Virus record (IMG/VR): IMGVR_UViG_3300045988_149468
Location: 32,001-96,000 of that record
Direction: 5' to 3' (one strand)
DNA length: 64,000 nucleotides
Source: a virus
A program made the translations under genes and the position numbers. The notes under the pieces are model-generated. The model did no database searches, was not told where the DNA came from, and saw only the letters and a program-made list of their open reading frames with translations. Below are positions 11,779 to 32,972 of this stretch, piece by piece. Positions within the stretch are counted from its first letter, which is position 1. Each line of letters opens with the position of its first letter.

Positions 11779-13672
11779 ATGGCAGATCATCAATTTAATA
11801 TTAAATTAGGTATTAAAGTTGAAAAAGGTGATTCTGAAAAACAGTTAGAGAATCTCAAAAAATCATTAGAAGAGAAGAAAATTACTTTAAAATTAGATGT
11901 AACTAAGCTTAATGAACAATTAAAAACATTTAAAGATTCGTTAAGTGATGTTAATAAAAAATTAAATGATGCTTTTAAGTTAAATAATGGTGCATTAGAT
12001 AATTTAAAGAATTTAAAAACCGTATTAGAGGAAATCAACAAATTAAGTGGTAAAACTAAAATACAAATTAATAATAGTAAAGACGTAAACACAATTACTA
12101 AAAATTTAGAAACACAGAAACAAAAGTATGCTGAATTAATAAGGTTGAAACAAAGCCTTGAAAAACAAAGAGCTAAAACAACTAATGCTGAATCGTATAA
12201 TGCATTAACAAGAGAAATTGATTTAGTTTCACAAAAAGCAGAAGAATGTAAAACTAAACTTAGTGAACTAACTAAGATTAAGTTAAATGCCGACATGACT
12301 AAAAGTATGGCATCGCAATTTCAAACAATTCAAAAAGAAGCTCAATCCTTAAAAACTTCATTAGAAAATACTTTAAAAAATTCTAATTTAACAATGACTC
12401 AGCAACATGATTTAGAAAATCTCTTAAAAACTATCGAAAAAATCAAAGGTAAAAAAGTAGATTTAAAAACTGATGGAGCAAAAACTAAATTACAAGATAT
12501 AAAAACCAATTTAGAAAGTATTAAAGAAAAATATTCATCAATTAAAATAGATATAAAAACTAACGACAATATTAGAAGTGCGATAAAAACAACTAATGAT
12601 TTTATTAACAAAATTAATTCTGCTCAAAAATCTAAAACTGGTGTAAATTCATTTATTGATGAAGGAAAATTAAATAATTTAAAAACTAAAGTTAAAGATT
12701 TAAGAACTCAATTGTCCGATGTACATTTAAAACCTAATGTTGAATCAGAGATTGAAAACATTATAAAAAAATTAGATAGATGTAAGGTTGAGTTTAAAGA
12801 ATTACAAAATTCAGCTAAATTAAGCATGAAAATAGATGGTGATGTAAATTCACAAACTAAACAGATTGATACTATGTTAAATAAGCTAAAAGAAATGAAA
12901 CAATGGAAAATTGGTTCAAATGCTTATATAGATGAATCTAAAATCAATGAAGCGATATCTAAATTAGAACAGTATAAAAATGAATTGAAAAATTTAGACG
13001 TTAATGATGAAAAAGTTGCATCTGAATTTGAGACTATAAAAAGTAAAATCAATGAAACAACACAAGAAATAAAAGAATTTCAAAATCAAGCTAAGCAAGG
13101 TATGAAAATTGATAGCAATAATGCTAGTATAGATTCATTAAAAAACAAAATCACTCAGTTAAAAAATGAAGAAAAATTAACTGCTGAACAAGCTGAACAA
13201 CTTAAACAAAAATTAAATCAAATATCACAAATGGATGTTGGAAAACAAGCTAATGCTATAAAACATTTTAGAAACGAATTAAAACAAGCTACAGATGAAA
13301 CTTCCAGATTGCAAACTGGTGTTAAAAGAACAAGCACATTCTTTAGTAATCTATATTCAACAATGTCTACATTCTCTCTAGGTAATATTATAAGTATGCA
13401 AATAACCAAAGCTATTTATGGTATAAGTGATACTATTAGAGAATTAGATAAAGCATTTGTTGGGTTAACTAAAGTTGCACCAGATTCATTTCATGGTACT
13501 GCTGAAGAATTAGAAAATGTAAGACAAAAAGCAGTAGAGGTTGGACAAGATGTTGCTCGTAGTGCTACGGATATAATTAATTCAACTGCATCAGCTTTAC
13601 AGTTAGGCGTAAGTAATATTGATAGAGCTATGGAATATGCTAAAAATGTCAATTTATACGCAAATGTCGCAG
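11779..13672 (+). CDS. tail tape measure protein, exon 1
   Basis: Strong SD; about 500 aa of coiled-coil followed by the conserved TMP core (...VGQDVARSATDIINSTASALQLGVSNIDRAMEYAKNVNLYANVA). The uninterrupted frame would stop at 13698, inside intron sequence. Confidence 0.75.
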
Positions 13673-14043
13673 AAACAACATTCTGCCTATGTTTATAAAG
13701 AGCATAGCAAACTCATTGAATTGCTGGAAAGCCCTAAAGCTCAAATGCCACAACATAATTGGAAACGATAAGTGTGATGGAACGAAAGTAGAAAAAAGTT
13801 TTGAGATAGTATAAGGTTAAACCCTAAGTACTAAAATAATGGGTAATCAGCCTCCAAGTCTCTATAAAGTGAGAAAGGATAAACGACTATTCCGTGACGG
13901 GAAGTACACATATAAGCTATTGATATGTGGAAGTGGTGAGGTTCTTTTTATTGAAAAAGAATGTGATATAGTCTACTCTTATATGAAAGTATAAGAAGTT
14001 CATAAGAGAACTGTCTAGCGTAGCGAGCTAGATGAATACAAGG
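13673..14043 (+). ncRNA. group I intron TMP-I1 (ORF-less, 371 nt; boundaries inferred)
   Basis: Core elements occur in order: P GAATTGCTGGAAA 13718-30, Q AATCAGCC 13845-52, R AAACGACTATTCC 13881-93, S GATATAGTCT 13965-74. The 3' tail is GTTCATAAGAGAAC 13998-14011 plus hairpin TCTAGC/GCTAGA. It is richer in G+C than the flanks. Confidence 0.75.
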
Positions 14044-14190
14044 ATATTTCAGAAGAGGATTCAGATAAATATTTAAAATCAATAATGTCAGCGTATGGTG
14101 GCGTTGATGAATCATTGGATGCTATGAGTACCAAAGTTAAAGGTGCTGGTGATAATTACAGTAGATTAACTGATTATATGGATCAGGCAG
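14044..14190 (+). CDS. tail tape measure protein, exon 2
   Basis: Open stretch reading (D)ISEEDSDKYLKSIMSAYGGVDESLDAMSTKVKGAGDNYSRLTDYMDQA; no start codon or SD of its own. Confidence 0.6.
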
Positions 14191-14563
14191 ATGTTTGCCT
14201 AGTTGTATAGTAATATGCAACCGAAAACAACTCTAATTGCAGGTAATGGGTAAAGCCTTACACTACAATATGCCAGAAATGAGTATATGATAGTGCGAAA
14301 GCGGAAACAACGTAAGGATTCTCATATGGTTAAATCCTAAGTGGGAAATGATTAAATTCATACAATCCCTGTTCATGCAACCAAGCTCCCCTGTATATAA
14401 CGAGGAGAAGGCTCAACGACTAATTGTACATTACAAGCCAATGGTAATGGAAAAGGGTTGCTCCTATTTATATAGGATGAAGAAATAGTCTAATCTTATG
14501 TGAAAGCATAAGCAGTTTGTAAGAGAACGGCATAAATCTTGCGAATTTATGTGAATATGAAAG
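14191..14563 (+). ncRNA. group I intron TMP-I2 (ORF-less, 373 nt; boundaries inferred)
   Basis: P TAATTGCAGGTAA 14234-46, Q-like GTTCATGCAACC 14371-82, R CTCAACGACTAAT 14412-24, S AAATAGTCT 14483-91, tail GTTTGTAAGAGAAC 14515-28 plus hairpin CATAAAT/ATTTATG. It is closest to I4. Confidence 0.7.
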
Positions 14564-14577
14564 AAACTATGCAGGTG
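14564..14577 (+). CDS. tail tape measure protein, micro-exon 3 (14 nt; alternatively 13 nt, 14564-14576)
   Basis: This is the only segment between I2 and I3 whose length keeps exons 2 and 4 in frame: (E)TMQV in the 14-nt solution, (A)NYAG in the 13-nt solution. Confidence 0.4.
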
Positions 14578-14922
14578 AAAGTTTAATCGCCTAGTAATAC
14601 AAGTGATTGTATTATTTTACTTTTTGAATTGCTGGAAACTCCTTAGAGTCTTAAATACTACAACATAATCTGAAAAGATAAGTGTGAAAGTTTAAAAAAT
14701 TTAAGAATTGGAAAATCAGCAGGTAAGATTCTAAGTTGATTATAAAATCAATATGAATAAACTTCAACGACTATTCCTGGCAAGGAAGTACATTCAAGCG
14801 AATGGAAGTGGAAAGCTCTTATAATAATTATAAGATAAAGATATAGTCTAGTATCCTATTGAAAAATAGGGAAGTTCATAAGAGAACTGATTAGGAAGTA
14901 GCGAACCTAATTGAATATAACG
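14578..14922 (+). ncRNA. group I intron TMP-I3 (ORF-less, 345 nt; boundaries inferred)
   Basis: P GAATTGCTGGAAA 14626-38, Q AATCAGCAGG 14714-23, R TTCAACGACTATTCC 14763-77, S GATATAGTCT 14840-49, tail GTTCATAAGAGAAC 14874-87 plus hairpin ATTAGG/CCTAAT. It is closest to I1. Confidence 0.7.
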
Positions 14923-15411
14923 AATAATTTTGCTGTTACATCAGCCGACATAGGTGAAGCATTAATGAGAAGTGCTTCAGCTTTTAAATCTAATGGTATG
15001 GATATAAATGAAGGTATAGGATTAATTGTAGGTGCTCAAGAAACGGTTCAAAATGCGGGTAAAGTAGGAAATAGTTTTAAAACAATGATAAATCGTCTTA
15101 ATGGGGTTACTTACTCTATGAAAGAAGGAGATGTTATTGCTAACAAAACTGCACAAGCATTTGAAAAATTAGCAGGTATCAAAATAGTAGATTGGGATAC
15201 TAACAAAGTAAAAGATGCTTATACTATCTTTAGTCAATTAGCAGATAAATGGGATGATATGAACGATGTTCAAAAAAATGGTATAGCAGACGCATTAGGT
15301 GGTGCTCACCATTTGAACACATTACAAGCTTTAATGAACAACTGGGACACTGTCGTACAATATCAACAAGAATATAACGATGGATTCATGGTTGGATCAG
15401 CTGAAAAAGAG
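14923..15411 (+). CDS. tail tape measure protein, exon 4
   Basis: NNFAVTSADIGEALMRSASAFKSNGMDINEGIGLIVGAQETVQNAGKVGNSFKTMINRL... is the typical TMP core. The track ORF 14911-15447 extends into intron sequence on both sides. Confidence 0.65.
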
Positions 15412-15647
15412 AAACAACATTCTCCGTATGTACAGAAATGTGCATAGGACACAACTTGAATTGCAGGTACAACCTAAGAGCCTTACACCACAATATTGGA
15501 GAAATCACAATATGAAGGTACGAAAGTAGAAACAACGTAAGGATAGATATAAGGTTAAATCCTAAGTATCTAAATGTAATTAAAGTAATTATTACATTAC
15601 AATGGTAGTTCATGCAGAGAAATTCCTAAATTTAATTTATAAAATCA

Positions 15648-15676
15648 TTGACAATATTTACCATTGGTGTTATTAT
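15648..15676 (+). promoter_or_regulatory. sigma-70-type promoter inside intron I4
   Basis: TTGACA (15648-53), 17 bp, TATTAT (15671-76), 11 bp, AATTAATAAGGAGG (15688-), then ATG 15710. Confidence 0.5.
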
Positions 15677-15709
15677 TTAAATATAATAATTAATAAGGAG
15701 GTGATTATT

Positions 15710-16861
15710 ATGGCAAAAAAATATAATGAAAAAGATATTATTGAAATTTTAGAAAAAAATAATGTGATATTATTATCAAATTATAAAAATAGCACAACAG
15801 AATTAAAAATGATTTGTAGCTGTGGAAAGCATTTTAGTAAATCGTTTAAAATAATGAAACGAAGTGGAAATTTTAAATGTAATGATTGTATAAAAAAAGA
15901 ACAAGTAAAAAAACAAACTATGCCTTATGAAATTGCAAAACAGAGAGTTGAAAACTTAGGATATAAATTGTTAACAACCAAAGAAGAATATATTAAAGCT
16001 AGTGAAAAAAACAAATTACAATGTCCAAATGGGCATATATATGAACAAATATTATTAGATTTATTTAAAGGACACAGATGTAAAAAATGTGCATCTAAAA
16101 TAAACGGAGATAAATCTAAATTTAAATACGAAGATGTTAAAAAGGTTATAACTGATTTAGGATTTGAATTATTATCAGCAGAATATGTAAATAATGATAC
16201 TCCTTTAAAAGTTAAATGTAAAAAATGTAATCATATATTTTCCCCAACTTTACATAATTTAAAAAACGGAACTGGCTGTCCAAATTGTTATTCAAAAATT
16301 AGGGGTAAATCTACAATCATACCATACGAGGATAGAGTAAATTATGTTGAAAATTTTAATTATAAAATCTTAACACCAAAAGAAGAATATATTAATGGTG
16401 AAAATAAGGTGAAATTAAAATGTTCAAAAGGACATATTTATGAAGCTAGATTGCATGATTTTTACATTGGAAATAGATGTCCGCATTGTAAGGAATCTAA
16501 AGGTGAAAGAAAAATTGAAAGATTTTTAAAAGAAAATGACATTAGATTTGAAAAACAATACATTATAAAAAGATGTAAATTTAAAAGATATTTACCTTTT
16601 GATTTTTATTTACCTGATTATAACCTTCTTATAGAATATGATGGGAAGCAACATTTTGAAATAAGTGATTATTTTGGGGGTTATGAAAGTTTCATAGATA
16701 CCAAGATAAGAGATACAATTAAAAACATTTATTGTCAAAATAATAACATAGATTTATTGAGAATCTCTTATTGGGATTATAAAAATATTGAGAATATATT
16801 GGCTGATAAATTAAAATTAAACAAGGAAAACTTTCAACGACTAGAGTTGAGATACTCGTAG
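15710..16861 (+). CDS. intron-encoded homing endonuclease: tandem zinc-ribbon modules plus C-terminal Vsr/PD-(D/E)XK-like nuclease domain
   Basis: ATG 15710 follows AAGGAGG. There are four repeats of CxxGH...GxxCPxC-type ribbons (CSCGKH..CNDC, CPNGH..CKKC, CKKCNH..CPNC, CSKGH..CPHC). The C-terminus FDFYLPDYNLLIEYDGKQHFE...RD matches Vsr/DUF559-like and EDxHD-type nucleases. The last codons overlap intron element R. Confidence 0.75.
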   Translation: MAKKYNEKDIIEILEKNNVILLSNYKNSTTELKMICSCGKHFSKSFKIMKRSGNFKCNDCIKKEQVKKQTMPYEIAKQRVENLGYKLLTTKEEYIKASEKNKLQCPNGHIYEQILLDLFKGHRCKKCASKINGDKSKFKYEDVKKVITDLGFELLSAEYVNNDTPLKVKCKKCNHIFSPTLHNLKNGTGCPNCYSKIRGKSTIIPYEDRVNYVENFNYKILTPKEEYINGENKVKLKCSKGHIYEARLHDFYIGNRCPHCKESKGERKIERFLKENDIRFEKQYIIKRCKFKRYLPFDFYLPDYNLLIEYDGKQHFEISDYFGGYESFIDTKIRDTIKNIYCQNNNIDLLRISYWDYKNIENILADKLKLNKENFQRLELRYS

Positions 16862-17000
16862 GATATAAGCGATTGATATCCGAAGTGGGTTGCCCCTAAC
16901 GTAAAGACGAGGGTGAAGAAATAGTCTGCTCATCTATAGAAATATAGAGAAGTTCATAAGAGAACTGCATAGGTATAGCGAATCTATGTGAACAAAAAGG

Positions 17001-20000
17001 AATGCTAGATTTATAGATAGCATAGAAGGTAAAATAACAAAATTAAAAGAACAATTTAATAGTTTGGTTACAACTACAATAAGTACGGATAGTGTTAAAA
17101 CATTTTTAGATGTATTAACAAGTGTATTAGAAACAGTTAATGGTATAGTAAAAGCATTTGATAATATAGGTATGTCTGCTCCTTTGATGATTGGTGTTTT
17201 TGCTAGTTTAGGTAAAACTATAAAAGCTTTAGGTACAGGTTCAGCATTAACTGTGACTGGGGGAAGTATATTTTCAAATTTATTAGGTAGAGCTGGTGTT
17301 CAAATACCACAAACTCTACAACAAAGTACTACTGCAACTGAAGGATTTAGAGTAGCTTTAACTAATGTAAGTGGAGCATCTATGTTAGCTTCAGCAAAAA
17401 CTGCTGTTTTAACTGCGGGTGTAACATTATTAAATACAGTTATGACAGGATTAGCTATTGGTGCTATTGCTTTAGTTTGTAAAGCTTTATATGATTATGT
17501 CAATGCTAATCAAATTGCACATGATAGAATAGAAGATAATATTGATACTACTAAAAGTAATATTAATAGTTATACCAAACAAAAGAATAGCTTAAAAGGT
17601 ATTGCAGAAGAATATGATAATTTAGCGGACAAAACTAATAAAAGTACAAAAGAATCTGAAAGATATCATGAATTACAACAACAAATAGCTGATACTGCAC
17701 CAGATTTAGTTTTAGGACAAGATTCTAATGGAAATCCAATTTTAGCTTTAAATGGATCATTAGAAGATTATATAGATAATTTAGATAGTGCAATAAAAAG
17801 AGAACAAGAGTTTTTAAAAATTCAACAAAATGCATTAGCAAATACTTCAATAGGGAATTTAGTTAAATATACTAAAGATAGAAGTATAGTTGAGTCATCT
17901 CTTGGGAATATGACAAACTTTTCAGATGCATGGGACGATAGTGGTTCATGGTGGAATAAAAAAGGATTAAAAAATGCTAAAGATGGCGCTGATGCCTATG
18001 TTCGTATAGTGCAAGAAAGAAATGATAAAGTAAATAAACTTAATAAAACTTTAACAGAACATTTTACTGAAGTTTCTCAAATAGAAGCAGAACAACAACA
18101 AAAAGTATTTAATGAATTAGGAGATGAATATCTTTATAAAAATTATAATAAGTTATCTAAAGACGGAATTAAGAATACTAAAAATATTATGGATACACTT
18201 ATTGGTAATTTTAACTGGGGTAGTGAAGTCGTAGATACAGTAGCGAAACAAAAGGATTTCATAGAAAGTTTTGATGAAATAGCTTCTAAAGTTGGTAAAA
18301 GCAAAGAAGAAATGCAAGAATGGAATAAAACTTTAAGTGAAGCTAATTATGCTTTCCAAGAAACAGGTGATTATGAACAATTCCAAAAAGACATAAGTGG
18401 TATAACTGAAGAATTAGAAAAAATGACTGGAATTGACGCTGAAAAATGGGCAATTGGATTTACACCAGCTTTACAAGGTTCATTAGATGCTGATTCTATA
18501 GCATTGAGTAAATTTTTAAAGAATTATAATAAAACACTTACAGAACTTAAATCTGGTGATAAAGTAGCAATAAGAATACAAGCCGAATATGAAGATACCA
18601 ATGATTTCATACAAAAGATAACTAATATGGAAGATAGACAGCAACAGATTGATTATATGGTTAAAATTAATACTGGTGAAGTTGAATATGGCAATCTTCC
18701 TTACCAAATTCAAGAAATGATTAAAGGTACTCTTGATGGTGGTAAAACAATGCAAGATTGGGAATCTGATGTTGTTATGAGAATTGCTACTGAAATTCAA
18801 TCTAATGGTGAATTAGATGATAAAACATTTGATTTAATTGCTAGAATGTTAAATGGTGAATTAACCGATACGGAAATTAAAGCAGGGATAACATTACCTA
18901 GTGGTGATGTATTAAATGCACAACTTGTTGGTGAAATAAATGAGGTTAATAAAAATAAAGATAAAAACATTAAAGTAGGAATTGAAGCTGATTCAGAGAA
19001 ATTAGATGAAGATTTATCTACCATTTTAGGTGATAAAGAAGAAGCTAAACAGTTAAAAGTTGATTTAGTTACTAATTTTAATGAAGATAAATTTGAAACA
19101 TTCAATGAATTAATTAAAGATATGGATTCTGATAAACAAATTCAAATAGCTACTGCTTTTGTTAATAATGGTGATGCAGATCCAGATGAAATAGAACAAT
19201 TTATATCATCTTTACCTGATGAAATCCAAAAGATAGTTAGAATTAAGTATGAAGAAAGTGGCAAAAATGATGTTGAAAATAGTGTGTTTAATGAATCTAA
19301 AGTACAGACAATTATACTTGATGCTGATGATGAAAAGGCACAAGCTAAGATTAAGAAATTAGGTAAAACGCTAGATGATATGGACGGTGTTGATAGAAAT
19401 ATTAAAGTTGGTATTATTGAAAATGCTGGTACAGGTAATGTAAAAGATATGATGAAAGCATTAGATTTAGTAAAAGATTTACCAGAAGAAAAAAGATTGG
19501 ATGTTATAAGTAATTTACAAGATATAATGGTAAACTTTTCTGAAGCTGACAAAAAACAACTTAAACCTAAAATAATGGAAATACTTGGTGATAATTCTGA
19601 TGCTAATTCTAAAATAGATAACACAAACGCAAAAGATACCCCAGACAAGAATTTGGATATTAATGCTAACGATAACGCTAGTAATAAAATTCATAAGGTA
19701 CAACAAGAAAGTATAGCCGACAAATTCTTCAACATAGTTGTTGGCGTAAAAGAAACCGTTGCAGGTGCATGGAAAGCTCTAACTAGTGGTGTAGGTGGAT
19801 TATATTCTAAAGGTGATAATAGTACTATAAAACACAAGTCAATTAGTGAATTTTCTAATATAGGAGATAACCCAATAGATGTTGATAGTGCTACACCAAC
19901 AGCTCAAAGTATGGATTTTAACTCTATGTCGGATAGTCCTTCAGTAGTAGATTCTGATTCAACAATAGATAATACAAGCTCAGCTATTAGTAAAGTAAAA

Positions 20001-21935
20001 GCATTTACTACTCAAGCATTAAGAGGATTTACAGATATAGGTAAAACAACTACAATAGGTACAAAAATAGACATAAAGAAAAACACATTAGATTCTATAG
20101 AGTATGCTGTAAACTTAATGCAAGAATTAGAATATCGTATTGATAATGTCAATGATAAATTATCTTTATTGGATGTTAAAATGGAAAATGCAGTAGGTAC
20201 TAAGAAAATTGAATACTTACAAAAACAAAATGCGTTATATGAAGAACAAGCTAAATTACAAAAAGAACTTTATGATAATTTAACTCAAGAAAAGCAAATA
20301 GTTAAAGATAAATTAAGAACATATGGTTTTACAATAGATGCACAAGGGAATCTTAGAAATTATGAAGAAACACTTCTTAAAATGGAAAAAAGAGCTAAAG
20401 AGCTAGAAGACCAAGCCGAAAAAACTAGTAAAAAAGCATCAGATTATGATACTAAAAGTAATAGTAAGTCTAGTAAGAAAACTAAAAAGTCATTACAAAA
20501 GAAAGCCGATAGTTCTAAAGACGCTTCAGATAAATATAAAGAAAAACTTGAAAAGGTAAAAGATTTAACGGAACAATATCTAAAAATGCAAAGAGATGAA
20601 ATTCCAGATGCAGAAAAAGAATGGTTAGAAATGCAAAATGCTATTAAAAAAAATAATGATGAAATAGAAAAGTTAGAATTAGAAGATAAATTATATAAAT
20701 TCAAAAATAGTGTTACTGGATTGACTAATCAATATGACATATGGGGAGATAAAATTGACTTAATAGATACTAAGCTAAACAATTCATTACAAACAGATAA
20801 GGTTTCTTTATATCAACAAAAATTATCAGCTTTAAATAAACAACTTGAAATACAAGAAAAAACATTAGAATCTTTAAAAAATCAATTACCAGTTTATCAA
20901 GAAGCATTATCGAAATATGGTGTTCAGTTTGGAGAAAATGGTAATATCATCAATATGTCTAATGTATTAAATGAATATCAAAATAGTGAAGATTTAGAAA
21001 AGATTAATGATTTAATGAAAGAATATAATGACTTAATCAGAGATACAATTCCAAATGCACAACAAGAATATGAAGATTTGAATAATGCAATTCAAGATGT
21101 TTATAATAGTCAATTAGATGTTGTAAAAGATATTGAAGATAAGATTACTGATGTTATTAAGGATCAAATTGATAAACGTAAAGATTTAATTCAAAAACAA
21201 TATGATAAAGAAATTGAATTACTTAATAAACGAAAAGATGAATATAATAACAATAAAAATACAAATGATTATTATAAAAACTTAGAAGAAGCACAATCTG
21301 AAATTGATAAAATACAAGCTAAAATTAATAGACTAAGTTTTGACAATTCATTATCTAGTAAAAGTAAGATAAGCGATTTAATGGATGATTTAAAAGATGC
21401 ACAAGATAAATATAATGATTTAGTTAACGATAGACAAGACGATTTAATTAATAATATGTATGACGATGAAATTGATAAACTTCAAAAAGAACAAGAAGAT
21501 AAAATACAAGAGCTTGAAGATAAATGGTCAGATAGTAAAATAGCTGAATTAGTTGCTAATGCGTTAGGTACACAACAATTTATAGATATTGACGGAAATG
21601 TTCATAATTTACAAGATACACTGCTTAGTTTTGCTGAAGAAAGTGGAGATGCATTAGGAATATTAGGTGATAAGATTAAAAGTGAATTAGTATTAAATCT
21701 TCAAGATGCTTTAGAATATGCTAAAGATTATAGTAATATATTTGACAACTTAGGATTAAAACATCTAGGTAATGTAAACTATAGTGATAAACTTAATAAC
21801 AAAACATTACGAGTTGATGATATAAGTATTAATGTATATGGTACTGACAACATGGATGAACAAAAAATAGCTAAAGAAGTAGCTAAACAACTTGATGGTA
21901 AATTTAGTGAAATAACAAATGGAGGACTTTTATAG
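17001..21935 (+). CDS. tail tape measure protein, exon 5
   Basis: NARFIDSIEGKITKLKEQFNSLVTT..., then a hydrophobic segment and a long coiled-coil. No SD or ATG; the track assigns TTG 17064. The frame is open from 16992. Confidence 0.75.
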   Translation, partial: NARFIDSIEGKITKLKEQFNSLVTTTISTDSVKTFLDVLTSVLETVNGIVKAFDNIGMSAPLMIGVFASLGKTIKALGTGSALTVTGGSIFSNLLGRAGVQIPQTLQQSTTATEGFRVALTNVSGASMLASAKTAVLTAGVTLLNTVMTGLAIGAIALVCKALYDYVNANQIAHDRIEDNIDTTKSNINSYTKQKNSLKGIAEEYDNLADKTNKSTKESERYHELQQQIADTAPDLVLGQDSNGNPILALNGSLEDYIDNLDSAIKREQEFLKIQQNALANTSIGNLVKYTKDRSIVESSLGNMTNFSDAWDDSGSWWNKKGLKNAKDGADAYVRIVQERNDKVNKLNKTLTEHFTEVSQIEAEQQQKVFNELGDEYLYKNYNKLSKDGIKNTKNIMDTLIGNFNWGSEVVDTVAKQKDFIESFDEIASKVGKSKEEMQEWNKTLSEANYAFQETGDYEQFQKDISGITEELEKMTGIDAEKWAIGFTPALQGSLDADSIALSKFLKNYNKTLTELKSGDKVAIRIQAEYEDTNDFIQKITNMEDRQQQIDYMVKINTGEVEYGNLPYQIQEMIKGTLDGGKTMQDWESDVVMRIATEIQSNGELDDKTFDLIARMLNGELTDTEIKAGITLPSGDVLNAQLVGEINEVNKNKDKNIKVGIEADSEKLDEDLSTILGDKEEAKQLKVDLVTNFNEDKFETFNELIKDMDSDKQIQIATAFVNNGDADPDEIEQFISSLPDEIQKIVRIKYEESGKNDVENSVFNESKVQTIILDADDEKAQAKIKKLGKTLDDMDGVDRNIKVGIIENAGTGNVKDMMKALDLVKDLPEEKRLDVISNLQDIMVNFSEADKKQLKPKIMEILGDNSDANSKIDNTNAKDTPDKNLDINANDNASNKIHKVQQESIADKFFNIVVGVKETVAGAWKALTSGVGGLYSKGDNSTIKHKSISEFSNIGDNPIDVDSATPTAQSMDFNSMSDSPSVVDSDSTIDNTSSAISKVKAFTTQALRGFTDIGKTTTIGTKIDIKKNTLDSIEYAVNLMQELEYRIDNVNDKLSLLDVKMENAVGTKKIEYLQKQNALYEEQAKLQKELYDNLTQEKQIVKDKLRTYGFTIDAQGNLRNYEETLLKMEKRAKELEDQAEKTSKKASDYDTKSNSKSSKKTKKSLQKKADSSKDASDKYKEKLEKVKDLTEQYLKMQRDEIPDAEKEWLEMQNAIKKNNDEIEKLELEDKLYKFKNSVTGLTNQYDIWGDKIDLIDTKLNNSLQTDKVSLYQQKLSALNKQLEIQEKTLESLKNQLPVYQEALSKYGVQFGENGNIINMSNVLNEYQNSEDLEKINDLMKEYNDLIRDTIPNAQQEYEDLNNAIQDVYNSQLDVVKDIEDKITDVIKDQIDKRKDLIQKQYDKEIELLNKRKDEYNNNKNTNDYYKNLEEAQSEIDKIQAKINRLSFDNSLSSKSKISDLMDDLKDAQDKYNDLVNDRQDDLINNMYDDEIDKLQKEQEDKIQELEDKWSDSKIAELVANALGTQQFIDIDGNVHNLQDTLLSFAEESGDALGILGDKIKSELVLNLQDALEYAKDYSNIFDNLGLKHLGNVNYSDKLNNKTLRVDDISINVYGTDNMDEQKIAKEVAKQLDGKFSEITNGGLL

Positions 21936-31580: not shown

Positions 31581-32972
31581 ATGTATGGTAAATTTATAAA
31601 TGACGAATTAATTGAAGCACCAAATACATATAAAACGCCAATGGGTGAATTAATAACTAATTTCACTAATTCTGTTGAATTAATGAAAGCTTATGGATTT
31701 AAAGAAATCACAGGAAATCAACCGAATTATGATCCTAACTATGAAGTATTAATAATTACATCTCATATAGAGCATGAAGACACAATAGAATGTGTTTATG
31801 AAAAAGTTTCAATGGCATCGTTACTTAAAACTAATATATCACATGATAAAAAAATAGATTATACTAGAGGTGAAATATTAGAAGCTAGAAAAAGTACTAA
31901 ATTAGTAAATGGTGAAACCACAACTAAAGAGTATTCTTCTTTAAAAGAAAGATTAGATAATATGGAAACTTTTGTTTATGAAAGAGTAGATATATCTAAT
32001 ACTACCCCAAATATAAATATAGAAAATAAAAAAATGTATATTTGCAATGAAAGTATAACCAATATATCGTTGATAACACCTGCTAATGTTGATGTCAACT
32101 TTTCATCTAAATTGTATTTTTCTTCAGATTCGGATTTAACATTGGATAATGTATTATTTATGGGTGACCATTGTGAAAATGGAAAATTAAATATTAAAGA
32201 AAATAACGAATATATTGTTGATTTTGTATATGCTACAAGATTCATAGGATTAGTTTCATCTTCAAATGTAATTGATGGTGATCCACCACAACCAAGCGAC
32301 CCTGGTGAAGATGTTGAAAATAAATTGCACTCATTTAGTGGTGGTGCTGAATTGGTTAGAATAGCTAAAACATATTGGGAAAATAGAGCAAATTATATGA
32401 CTTATGGTATGCAAAACATTTTAACTGATGGTGCTACATTAGGCTGGACAAAAGTTACAACTAAGGGTGCTGATAGCCCAGATGGTAGATATAGAAAATT
32501 AGACTGCTCTGCTTTTGTTGGTTTGGCAATGAGAGGAATAGAATTTAGAGATGTATTTAAAGATAGTAATACATTTGCTAAGAAAGATTTATCTCCTCGA
32601 AATTCTAAATATCCATGGGCAACTCAATTAAGCAGAACATCAGCTAATATGTGCAAGGATTGTGAAAACTTAGGTTGGGCAGTTCCACCAGATAATTGGC
32701 ATACTGATTCAGCTAAAACTAATTGGTTGGGATTAGAGGTTGGAGATTTAATATTCCTTAAAGGTGATTCTGATAATGGCAGATACAAAGCTGTAAATCA
32801 TGTATGCATTTATTATGGGGATAATAGTAAAGGAGAAAAATGTATAATTGAGTTTACAGGTGGTGCAACAGTTAAAAAACATTCCGATGGTAAAAATTAT
32901 GGATGTCAAATAATACCATTAGCAAGAAAAAATAGAGCAAACATAGTAACTGTTGCTAGATGTCAAAAATAG
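31581..32972 (+). CDS. structural protein with C-terminal NlpC/P60-like (C40) peptidase domain
   Basis: RKLDCSAFVGLAMRG (Cys) and VNHVCIYYGDN (His); SD AAAGGAGGG. Confidence 0.6.
   Translation: MYGKFINDELIEAPNTYKTPMGELITNFTNSVELMKAYGFKEITGNQPNYDPNYEVLIITSHIEHEDTIECVYEKVSMASLLKTNISHDKKIDYTRGEILEARKSTKLVNGETTTKEYSSLKERLDNMETFVYERVDISNTTPNINIENKKMYICNESITNISLITPANVDVNFSSKLYFSSDSDLTLDNVLFMGDHCENGKLNIKENNEYIVDFVYATRFIGLVSSSNVIDGDPPQPSDPGEDVENKLHSFSGGAELVRIAKTYWENRANYMTYGMQNILTDGATLGWTKVTTKGADSPDGRYRKLDCSAFVGLAMRGIEFRDVFKDSNTFAKKDLSPRNSKYPWATQLSRTSANMCKDCENLGWAVPPDNWHTDSAKTNWLGLEVGDLIFLKGDSDNGRYKAVNHVCIYYGDNSKGEKCIIEFTGGATVKKHSDGKNYGCQIIPLARKNRANIVTVARCQK

What the first reader, a model, noticed from the sequence alone, without database searches (positions are those of the whole stretch)
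14191..14922. Two introns separated by a micro-exon of 13-14 nt
I2 and I3 are back to back. Only 14 nt (14564-14577, AAACTATGCAGGTG) can remain as exon if exon 2 (phase 1 at G14190) is to join exon 4 (phase 0 at 14923). An alternative solution is also in frame: exon 2 ends at C14188, the micro-exon is 14564-14576 (13 nt) and it ends at U14576. That solution gives ...DQ-A-NYAG-NNF... Either way the exon is shorter than a normal P1/P10 guide interaction would need on both sides. Splicing order and guide-sequence sharing between neighbouring ribozymes would therefore be unusual.
Basis: inference. Interest (0 to 1): 0.75.

Follow-up and report, generated by a model that had tools for sequence, protein, structure and literature searches.

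The report
Thirteen-base exon between two self-splicing introns
A phage tail tape-measure gene carries two separate self-splicing group I introns only 13 bases apart; related phages carry one, the other, both or neither, which fixes the junctions, shows that no special mechanism is needed, and reveals that the upstream intron follows a C instead of the almost universal U.

Summary
Confirmed, with corrected coordinates. Window 14189-14563 (I2, 375 nt) and 14577-14922 (I3, 346 nt) are two complete group I introns (Rfam RF00028, 50.5 and 73.4 bits). They are separated by a 13-nt exon, 14564-14576 (AAACUAUGCAGGU).

The proof comes from related phage contigs. With identical exon text they carry I2 only, I3 only or both, and a more distant one carries neither. 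All intron-free homologues read D-x-ANYAGN-x-(F/Y)A without a break.

The exon is not too short. Its first 4 nt pair with I2's own guide (P10). Its last 4-7 nt pair with I3's own guide (P1). There is no overlap and no shared guide. Whichever intron leaves first, the intermediate equals the pre-mRNA of a natural single-intron allele.

The same layout recurs in six contigs besides the window, and independently in a distant phage (L027).

Two things are unusual. I2 follows a C paired with G rather than a U·G wobble, invariant in five diverged variants. And the two guides are interchangeable in pairing energy, so frameshifting exon skipping is conceivable.

Small exons between phage introns (about 66 nt) and organellar micro-exons are already known.

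The parts
11779..13672 (+). Tape-measure gene, exon 1 (ends …GCAG; the boundary can slide by 1 nt)
   Evidence: ORF list. Intron-free allele L001 reads GTCGCAGACATTTCAG. Homologues read …YANVAD|ISEED.
13673..14043 (+). Intron I1, group I, 371 nt, no ORF
   Evidence: RF00028 43.8 bits, E 5e-9. Absent from L001-L003 and L007. P1 GCAG/CUGC plus a P2 hairpin.
14044..14188 (+). Exon 2 (145 nt), ends …GAU CAG GC, phase 2
   Evidence: Contiguous with exon 1 and with the micro-exon in L001-L003.
14189..14563 (+). Intron I2, group I, 375 nt, no ORF. The 5' splice site follows C14188; the last base is G14563.
   Evidence: RF00028 50.5 bits. Absent from L001-3, L006, L009, L010 and L017; present without I3 in L005, L011, L012, L015, L016 and L018.
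14185..14200 (+). I2 P1 hairpin: A14185-U14200, G-C, G-C, C14188-G14197 (the splice-site pair), A14189-U14196, G14190·U14195. The guide sequence is 14196-14202.
   Evidence: MFE fold, z = -3.2. The C-G pair is 5/5 and the +1 pair is AU x4 / UA x1 across five diverged site-B introns.
14193..14196 (+). I2 guide segment GUUU, which pairs with the first 4 nt of the micro-exon (P10)
   Evidence: Read directly from the sequence, 4 contiguous pairs adjacent to the splice-site G. Compensated in L027: GUUA with UAAC.
14203..14220 (+). I2 P2 hairpin with a GUAA tetraloop
   Evidence: Five of 7 pairs change on both sides across variants.
14564..14576 (+). Micro-exon AAACUAUGCAGGU, 13 nt. It supplies the third base of the Ala codon plus N-Y-A-G.
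   Evidence: Identical 13 nt between the two introns in WIN, L007/8, L013/14, L021 and L022. Contiguous coding sequence in single-intron and intron-free alleles. The motif ANYAG is conserved in homologues.
14577..14922 (+). Intron I3, group I, 346 nt, no ORF here (relatives carry a 234-237-aa homing-endonuclease ORF). The 5' splice site follows U14576; the last base is G14922.
   Evidence: RF00028 73.4 bits. Absent from L005, L011, L012, L015, L016, L018 and L004. The ORF variant matches phrog_559 at E 2e-60.
14573..14592 (+). I3 P1 hairpin: A14573-U14592, G-C, G-C, U14576·G14589 (canonical wobble), G14577-C14588, A14578-U14587. Optional extension 14570-72 with 14594-96.
   Evidence: MFE fold, z = -2.7.
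14597..14612 (+). I3 P2 hairpin with a GUGA tetraloop
14923..15411 (+). Exon 4 (489 nt), begins AAU AAU UUU = NNF
   Evidence: ORF and translation. PF10145 on the homologous piece.
15412..17000 (+). Intron I4, group I, 1589 nt, carrying a homing-endonuclease gene
   Evidence: Intron-free allele L009 reads GAAAAAGAGAATGCTAGA. The ORF-less copy at the same site in L007 is an RF00028 hit at 39.6 bits. P1/P2 fold z = -6.2.
15710..16861 (+). Homing-endonuclease ORF inside I4 (383 aa)
   Evidence: phrog_559 'HNH endonuclease' E 1e-81. Pfam DUF4379 treble-clef zinc finger E 4e-13, CapR.
17001..21935 (+). Exon 5, begins AAU GCU AGA = NAR
   Evidence: ORF. Homologue P0030 reads GSAEKENLRYLDS. Full spliced frame.

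Best explanation
Two independent, complete, mobile group I introns of the widespread phage type sit at two homing sites 13 bp apart. Both sites lie in the most conserved motif (…MD-x-ANYAGNNFA…) of the tape-measure gene of a large SPbeta/phiCD211-like siphophage.

Each intron has its own P1 hairpin and guide sequence. I2's guide 14196-14202 pairs with the end of exon 2. Its 5' neighbour GUUU (14193-14196) pairs with AAAC, the first four bases of the micro-exon (P10). I3's guide 14588-14594 pairs with (UGC)AGGU, the last 4-7 bases of the micro-exon (P1, with the canonical U14576·G14589 wobble). So the 13 nt are almost fully used, but by two different ribozymes and without overlap.

Splicing is most likely sequential. 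I2 probably goes first, because it is fully transcribed about 350 nt before I3's core exists (inferred). Whichever goes first, the intermediate is identical to the primary transcript of a naturally occurring single-intron allele, so no special mechanism is required.

The product is …GAU CAG GC|A AAC UAU GCA GGU|AAU AAU… = DQANYAGNN.

The arrangement exists because both sites are independently occupied or vacant in the phage population. Shown: the boundaries, the independence of the two introns, the pairings and the recurrence. Inferred: actual RNA splicing, its order and its efficiency.
For: Rfam hits for both introns over the full model.

All four occupancy states occur with the same exon text:
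- neither intron: L004
- I3 only: L001-3, L006, L009, L010, L017
- I2 only: L005, L011, L012, L015, L016, L018
- both: window, L007/8, L013/14, L021, L022

ORF fragments of relatives read straight through: …DYMDQANYAGESLIA* and …EYMDMANYAGNNFALTS.

Every intron has a P1 + P2 hairpin pair at its 5' end. P1, P10 and P2 covary across diverged site-B introns.

A second double arrangement in a distant phage (L027, whose TMP N-terminal fragment is 48% identical to the query) has its own 13-nt exon UAACUAUGCAGGU, and both of its introns carry ORFs.

A different intron sits at exactly the I3 site in Clostridioides phage pCD1602_4.

The spliced frame is open for 2491 codons. I3 relatives and I4 carry homing-endonuclease genes.
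Against: There are no RNA data: splicing, its order and its efficiency are all inferred from DNA.

I2's Rfam score is only just above threshold (50.5 against 50).

I3's P10 is weak: at most 3-4 pairs, with a mismatch.

The two guides pair about equally well with either 5' splice site (-6.5 to -7.2 kcal/mol), so mis-splicing could occur.
Confidence: 0.85

Rival explanations
1. The whole stretch 14189-14922 behaves as one composite (tandem) intron. I2's 5' splice site is joined to I3's 3' splice site and the 13 nt are discarded, as reported for tandem group I modules in fungal mitochondria and for exon skipping in phages Twort and SIOphi.
For: The two guides are interchangeable in pairing energy: exon 2 end with I3's guide -6.5, against -7.2 kcal/mol with its own. 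Exon skipping by phage group I introns is documented (PMC3073962, PMC11878797).
Against: Skipping removes 13 nt, shifts the frame and stops after 10 codons, giving a 689-aa product ending …DQAIILLLHQPT*. The 13 nt are ordinary coding sequence in single-intron and intron-free alleles, and ANYAG is conserved in all homologues. This can only be a by-product, not the productive route.
Confidence: 0.05
2. One reading: exon 2 ends at G14190 and the micro-exon is 14564-14577 (14 nt), giving DQAETMQVNNF.
For: It is in frame.
Against: Alleles lacking I2 read CAGGCAAACTATG, with no G14190. Alleles lacking I3 read GCAGGTAATAAT, with no G14577. No homologue has ETMQV. It would place neither 5' splice site at the guide-paired position.
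Confidence: 0.01
3. I2 is a decaying, poorly splicing or non-splicing insertion, because of its C-G splice-site pair. Phages that carry it are defective or depend on a helper, for example a host or phage factor, or cleavage of I2's 5' site by the neighbouring I3 ribozyme.
For: A Watson-Crick pair at the cleavage site strongly slows the first step in the Tetrahymena ribozyme (my own knowledge, not tested here). I2 has no endonuclease gene in the window. Its Rfam score is marginal.
Against: I2-only alleles occur in many samples on contigs of up to 128 kb, so I3 cannot be required. The protein cluster that reads into I2 has 118 member sequences. Site-B introns persist in diverged phages with compensatory changes in P1, P10 and P2, and some carry endonuclease ORFs (L023, L027). 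That is the signature of selection on a working ribozyme.
Confidence: 0.07

Closest known systems
Group I introns in tape-measure genes of Bacillus cereus-group prophages (TMP-IVS1, IVS2, IVS3; Tourasse & Kolstø 2008, PMC2504315)
   Same: Several phage-type group I introns (IA1/IA2 in that study) in one tape-measure gene. Related introns sit at different sites with P1/P10 adapted to each site, and different introns sit at the same site. Presence and absence vary between strains.
   Different: That study describes three sites and reports no micro-exon. Here the phage population has at least seven sites, two of them 13 bp apart, and several introns do not follow a U.
Tape-measure intron of Clostridioides difficile phages phiCD211 / phiCDIF1296T / pCD1602_4
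   Same: These are the closest cultured relatives of this gene (44-54% amino-acid identity). phiCD211 is annotated with Intron_gpI in the gene. pCD1602_4 has an intron at exactly the I3 site, GCUGGU|…|AAUAAUUUU.
   Different: A different intron sequence occupies the shared site, and no site-B intron was seen there, so there is no micro-exon.
[quoted passage not shown] 2025, PMC11878797)
   Same: A phage gene with two group I introns separated by a small exon, confirmed by cDNA. Exon skipping was seen in another gene of that study.
   Different: The phiNIT1 exon is about 66 nt by my reading of the sequence (L029 32266-32331), five times longer than this one.
Phage Twort orf142 with three group I introns and exon skipping (Landthaler & Shub 1999, as cited in PMC3073962)
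   Same: Similar introns clustered in one structural gene. Cross-use of splice sites between similar ribozymes.
   Different: I could not read the paper to compare exon sizes. The 142-codon gene is split into four exons, so they average about 100 nt (inference).
Organellar micro-exons between self-splicing introns (PMC12308204 and the work it cites)
   Same: That paper lists an 18-nt stretch between two group IB introns in cob, 3-bp exons in fungal mitochondria, and 1-nt exons. Neighbouring insertion sites are independently occupied in different strains.
   Different: Those are organellar genomes, often of uncertain interpretation (pseudo-exon or tandem twintron). Here the phage population supplies every intermediate allele, so the exon is unambiguous.
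BcISt1 and group B IStrons, which splice after G (Tourasse et al. 2014, PMC4227781)
   Same: An experimentally confirmed group I ribozyme whose 5' splice site does not follow a U.
   Different: There a U·G pair still exists, shifted by one base next to an internal loop. I2 has a plain C-G pair inside a continuous helix, and I1/I4 have a G-C pair with no U in the exon strand.

Membership tests
Group I intron (Rfam RF00028) | Match to the covariance model at or above the gathering score, over the full model | tested here: met
   I3 73.4 bits and I2 50.5 bits (threshold 50), both covering model positions 1-253. The same pair in L007 scores 75.3 and 46.5 bits, so I2 is borderline.
Group I intron (Rfam RF00028) | P1: the 5' exon end pairs with an internal guide sequence near the intron's 5' end | tested here: met
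   Hairpins at 14185-14200 (I2) and 14573-14592 (I3). For I2, exon/guide and +1 covariation across five variants.
Group I intron (Rfam RF00028) | U·G wobble pair at the 5' splice site | tested here: not met
   Met for I3 (U14576·G14589). Not met for I2: C14188-G14197, C-G in 5 of 5 variants. Sliding the boundary by 1 nt gives an A-U pair and an intron ending in A. So I2 is a group I intron by its core, but an atypical one at this feature.
Group I intron (Rfam RF00028) | Intron ends in G (omega-G) | tested here: met
   G14563 and G14922. The boundaries are fixed by intron-free alleles.
Group I intron (Rfam RF00028) | P10: the start of the 3' exon pairs with the guide next to P1 | tested here: met
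   I2: GUUU 14193-96 with AAAC 14564-67, compensated in L027 as GUUA/UAAC. I3: only a weak, interrupted pairing in the window (inconclusive for I3); AUU/AAU in L027.
Group I intron (Rfam RF00028) | Conserved catalytic core (P3-P9, G-binding P7) | tested here: met
   The model alignment shows P3, P4-P6, P7 (ACGACUA … AUAGUCU), P8 and P9 in both introns. 67-74% identity among I1, I2, I3 and the site-E and site-F introns.
Group I intron (Rfam RF00028) | Self-splicing with guanosine; ligated exons restore the reading frame | not testable with these tools
   Only the DNA-level equivalent is available: intron-free alleles and an open spliced frame.
Twintron / composite tandem intron | One intron lies inside another, or two modules are removed as one unit with no exon between them | tested here: not met
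   The two introns are side by side and occur separately in other genomes. The 13 nt between them are conserved coding sequence needed for the frame.
Mobile (homing) group I intron | [quoted passage not shown] | tested here: met
   Occupancy table. The I3 site carries a 234-237-aa ORF in L002/3, L009/10/17 and L013/14. Site-B introns carry ORFs in L023 and L027. The ORFs tested (I3-site ORF of L009, I4 ORF) match phrog_559 and DUF4379. The window's own I2 and I3 have no ORF.

The most novel reading that the evidence does not exclude
This phage lineage carries natural group I ribozymes that choose their 5' splice site without the U·G wobble. The site-B intron (I2) follows a C in a C-G pair, forced by the Ala codon GCN. 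The I1/I4/site-E family follows a G in a G-C pair.

In addition, I2 and I3 have interchangeable guide cores (GCCUAG) aimed at near-identical targets (CAGGC|A and CAGGU|A) 13 nt apart. Inclusion or skipping of the micro-exon, and so the choice between full-length and truncated tape-measure protein, could therefore depend on competition between two ribozymes.

If these introns self-splice efficiently, the wobble-receptor rule for group I splice-site choice is not general.
Probability: 0.5. Interest if true: 0.7.

Novelty: new variant of a known kind. Interest (0 to 1): 0.55.

Why it matters
For annotation: every gene caller cut this 2491-codon gene into pieces. A 13-nt exon cannot be found without population or RNA data, and the allele series found here gives a DNA-only way to fix such junctions.

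For ribozyme biology: the micro-exon shows how little exon two neighbouring group I ribozymes need, about 4 nt for P10 and 4-7 nt for P1.

The site-B intron lineage is a ready natural test case for splicing without the conserved U·G pair. The pair of introns with the same guide core is a natural system for studying splice-site competition and exon skipping.

For phage evolution: a stretch of about 1.7 kb in one gene (exon coordinates) with at least seven independently occupied intron sites is an unusually rich record of intron gain, loss and site adaptation.

Tried and rejected
1. The 14-nt solution: rejected by intron-free alleles.

2. For I1 and I4, a canonical U·G splice site inside the CUAUGU/GCAUAG hairpin, which Rfam aligns as P1. 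It would leave an in-frame 21-nt insert in the window. It is out of frame in the L016 variant (22+1 nt) and the L006 variant (15+1 nt), and no homologue has the insert. That hairpin is P2.

3. I2 as a recent copy of I3 at a look-alike site: not supported. I2 and I3 are 71% identical, no closer than any other pair in the family.

4. Other 5' splice sites for I2 after a U (U14183, U14179, U14192-96): none gives the conserved protein together with an intron ending in G (reasoning).

5. Host identification: two genome-contig scans found nothing, and the window has no tRNA.

6. An intron-free (neither I2 nor I3) allele among close relatives: none in IMG/VR. Only the 78%-identical (DNA) L004 lacks both.

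7. Near-identical phages in GenBank: none; only short intron-core matches.

8. The Twort 1999 paper could not be opened. The size of the phiNIT1 small exon is not in the text held, so I read it from the genome.

Full report
WHAT IS THERE

The window encodes, on the + strand from 11779 to 21935, a very long tail tape-measure gene. It sits among SPbeta-type structural genes: relatives' neighbours carry the Pfam families YomW, YomN, YonB, YomU and YomV, and PF10145 lies on the central exon. The gene is broken into five exons by four group I introns.

Rfam finds three of the introns: 13683-13995 at 43.8 bits, 14174-14512 at 50.5 bits and 14567-14871 at 73.4 bits. The fourth (15412-17000) is not detected because it carries a 383-codon homing-endonuclease gene (phrog_559 E 1e-81; treble-clef zinc fingers). 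Its ORF-less counterpart at the same site in a relative is detected.

The window is 26.4% G+C and has no tRNA genes. No close phage exists in GenBank. The nearest cultured relatives of this gene are the 130-kb Clostridioides difficile phages of the phiCD211 type, at 44-54% amino-acid identity. phiCD211 is itself annotated with a group I intron in this gene.

FIXING THE JUNCTIONS WITHOUT RNA

A protein search with the provisional spliced core returned 45 ORF fragments from metagenomes. Many are the same gene, cut by gene callers wherever an intron starts, and their ends show which introns each genome has. P0002 ends …YANVADISEED…DYMDQANYAGESLIA*, so it has no I1 and no I2 and runs into I3. P0005 ends …DYMDQADVCLVV*, so it runs into I2. 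P0001 reads …EYMDMANYAGNNFALTS… straight through. More distant homologues all read D-x-AN-(Y/F)-(A/I)-G-N-x-(F/Y)-A without a gap.

I fetched the contigs and mapped them on the spliced reference. In exon coordinates, the stretch of about 1.7 kb from the I1 site to site G has at least seven intron sites in this phage population. For the two sites in question all four states exist:
- neither intron: L004
- I3 only: L001-3, L006, L009, L010, L017
- I2 only: L005, L011, L012, L015, L016, L018
- both: the window, L007/8, L013/14

The exon text is the same in every state: GATCAGGC|AAACTATGCAGGT|AATAATTTTGCT. Hence I2 = 14189-14563, the micro-exon = 14564-14576 and I3 = 14577-14922.

The only ambiguity is a 1-nt slide for I2, because A14189 equals A14564. 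The rule that group I introns end in G resolves it.

An exact-pattern scan found two more contigs with the double arrangement. The 13 nt are identical in all of them. With these junctions the gene is one open frame of 2491 codons.

ANATOMY OF THE TWO INTRONS AND THE MICRO-EXON

All four introns begin with the same two-hairpin layout: P1, then P2 with a tetraloop in I2 and I3.

In I2, P1 is A14185-U14200, G-C, G-C, C14188-G14197 | A14189-U14196, G14190·U14195. The guide is UGCCUAG (14196-14202). P2 is 14203-14220 with a GUAA loop. Directly 5' of the splice-site G, GUUU (14193-14196) pairs with AAAC (14564-14567), the first four bases of the micro-exon. That is a textbook P10.

In I3, P1 is A14573-U14592, G-C, G-C, U14576·G14589 | G14577-C14588, A14578-U14587. 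It can optionally extend to U14570-A14596. The guide is CGCCUAG, and P2 is 14597-14612.

So the 13 nt divide as AAAC (P10 of I2), UA or UAUGC (spacer) and (UGC)AGGU (P1 of I3). The two interactions do not overlap, and each uses a different intron's guide.

I3's own P10 with exon 4 is weak in the window.

EVIDENCE THAT THESE PAIRINGS ARE REAL

More diverged phages carry introns at the same site B:
- L023: AUGGC|AGAGAUUUGCCUAG, with an endonuclease ORF
- L025: GAGGC|AGAAAGUUUGCCUAG
- L028: GAGGC|AAAAUUUUGCCUAG
- L027: UUGGC|UAAUGUUAGCCUGG

On the alignment of the five 5' ends, the named P1 + P2 structure is 90% paired. Versions slid by 1-3 columns are 25-48% paired. Five of the seven P2 pairs change on both sides.

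In L027 the +1 pair is U-A instead of A-U. The 3' exon there starts with U instead of A, so P10 is GUUA/UAAC instead of GUUU/AAAC. That is a coordinated three-way change at precisely the positions the model predicts.

L027 is also a second double arrangement. A site-B intron with an ORF is followed by a 13-nt exon (UAACUAUGCAGGU) and then a site-C intron with an ORF and a canonical CAGGU/GCCUG P1. The gene fragment there is only 48% identical to the query. The layout is therefore recurrent or long-lived, not an accident of one genome.

HOW IT MOST LIKELY WORKS

The two introns are independent self-splicing units.

If I2 leaves first, the intermediate is the natural pre-mRNA of I3-only phages. 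If I3 leaves first, it is the natural pre-mRNA of I2-only phages. The double allele poses no new chemical problem.

I infer that I2 usually goes first, because its 3' splice site and P10 partner are transcribed about 350 nt before I3's core is complete. I also infer that the two folded cores, tethered by 2-5 unpaired bases, probably cannot both dock the micro-exon at once. Neither point is tested.

Ribosomes that read into either intron stop within 7-8 codons, at UAG 14208-10 and UAG 14592-94, as is usual for phage introns.

WHAT IS UNUSUAL

(a) I2's 5' splice site follows C14188, which forms a Watson-Crick pair with G14197 at the position homologous to I3's U·G. The C is the second base of the conserved Ala codon, so it cannot be U without changing the protein. 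It is C-G in all five site-B variants. The literature held here states that virtually all group I introns follow a U (PMC2504315). The one confirmed exception I found is the BcISt1 IStron, which splices after a G (PMC4227781).

(b) The guide cores of I2 and I3 are the same (GCCUAG), and their targets differ only at the last base (CAGGC and CAGGU). Duplex energies for cognate and crossed combinations are -7.2 and -6.9 against -6.5 and -6.6 kcal/mol. Cross-use of splice sites, as in the exon skipping seen in Twort and SIOphi (PMC3073962, PMC11878797), would delete the 13 nt and give a truncated 689-residue product. Whether this happens is unknown.

COMPARISON WITH WHAT IS KNOWN

- Several group I introns in tape-measure genes, with site-adapted P1/P10, were described in Bacillus cereus-group prophages (PMC2504315).
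- A small exon between two introns was found by cDNA in phiNIT1 nrdE (PMC11878797). I read that exon as about 66 nt.
- Organellar genomes have an 18-nt stretch between group IB introns, and 3-nt and 1-nt exons (PMC12308204).
- I3's core is about 69% identical to the many introns of Bacillus phages AR9 and PBS1, and it also matches Staphylococcus myoviruses. I2's 3' half matches the Tuc2009 and Clostridium phage c-st introns.

The elements and the general phenomenon are therefore known. What is new is the extreme shortness in a phage gene, the complete allele series that proves it, and the non-U splice site.

I could not verify that 13 nt is the shortest phage exon on record.

VERDICT

This is a new variant of a known kind, of moderate interest. 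Most of that interest comes from the wobble-less splice sites and the shared guide core, both of which need bench tests.

Noticed in passing
window 13669-13686 and 14042-14044 (I1); 15408-15425 and 16999-17001 (I4); L006, L007, L016 site E: I1, I4 and the site-E introns of relatives all begin 'RG|AA-loop-UUCY'. There is no U in the exon strand of P1. The base before the cut is G paired with C or, sliding the boundary by 1 nt, a purine paired with a pyrimidine. The guide covaries with five different exon contexts: GCAG/CUGC, GCGG/CCGC, GAG/CUC, AAG/CUU and AGG/CCU. Introns at sites C, D and G have ordinary U·G pairs.
   Followed up: partly
window 13000-17720, compared with L001-L018: The tape-measure core is an intron hot spot. 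At least seven sites (A, B, C, D, E/E', F, G) are occupied in different combinations, with two to five introns visible per contig, and with or without endonuclease ORFs at the same site. The window has four (A, B, C, F).
   Followed up: partly
L027 4283-6213: A distantly related phage has its own site-B intron, 13-nt exon (UAACUAUGCAGGU) and site-C intron, and both introns carry ORFs (249 and 121 codons).
   Followed up: partly
window 15710-16861; L009 9645-10349 and 10801-11691: The intron ORFs belong to one endonuclease family (phrog_559). They combine repeated treble-clef zinc fingers (DUF4379, CapR) with a C-terminal region that weakly resembles the PvuRts1I N-terminal nuclease domain. None of the three tested ORFs gave a Pfam hit to a classical HNH, GIY-YIG or LAGLIDADG domain at E up to 0.01.
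   Followed up: partly
window 14043-14045 compared with L001 7894-7896: There is a synonymous difference right at the I1 site: intron-free alleles read GAC, intron-bearing alleles read GAT. This could be a co-conversion or endonuclease-resistance mark.
   Followed up: no
window 14240-14250 and 14395-14405 (I2), compared with 14632-14640 and 14715-14725 (I3); coordinates approximate: In the Rfam alignment the J4/5 and J5/4 strands, which form the wobble receptor in other group I introns, read UAA/UGU in I2 and AAA/AAA in I3. This may relate to I2's C-G splice-site pair. However, I1 (AAA/UAA) and I4 do not follow a simple rule.
   Followed up: no
L029 (Bacillus phage phiNIT1) 31970-32682: The 'small exon' reported from cDNA in phiNIT1 nrdE lies between two RF00028 hits. 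By my reading it is about 66 nt (32266-32331, encoding QRQGSGAAYLNIFHRDISDFLD). The GenBank record does not annotate it.
   Followed up: partly
proteins P0002-P0044: Public gene calls split this gene into fragments of 639, 686 or 689 residues that end in intron read-through peptides (…DQADVCLVV, …NYAGESLIA, …KQHSPYVQKCA). These peptide tails are handy markers of which intron a genome carries.
   Followed up: yes
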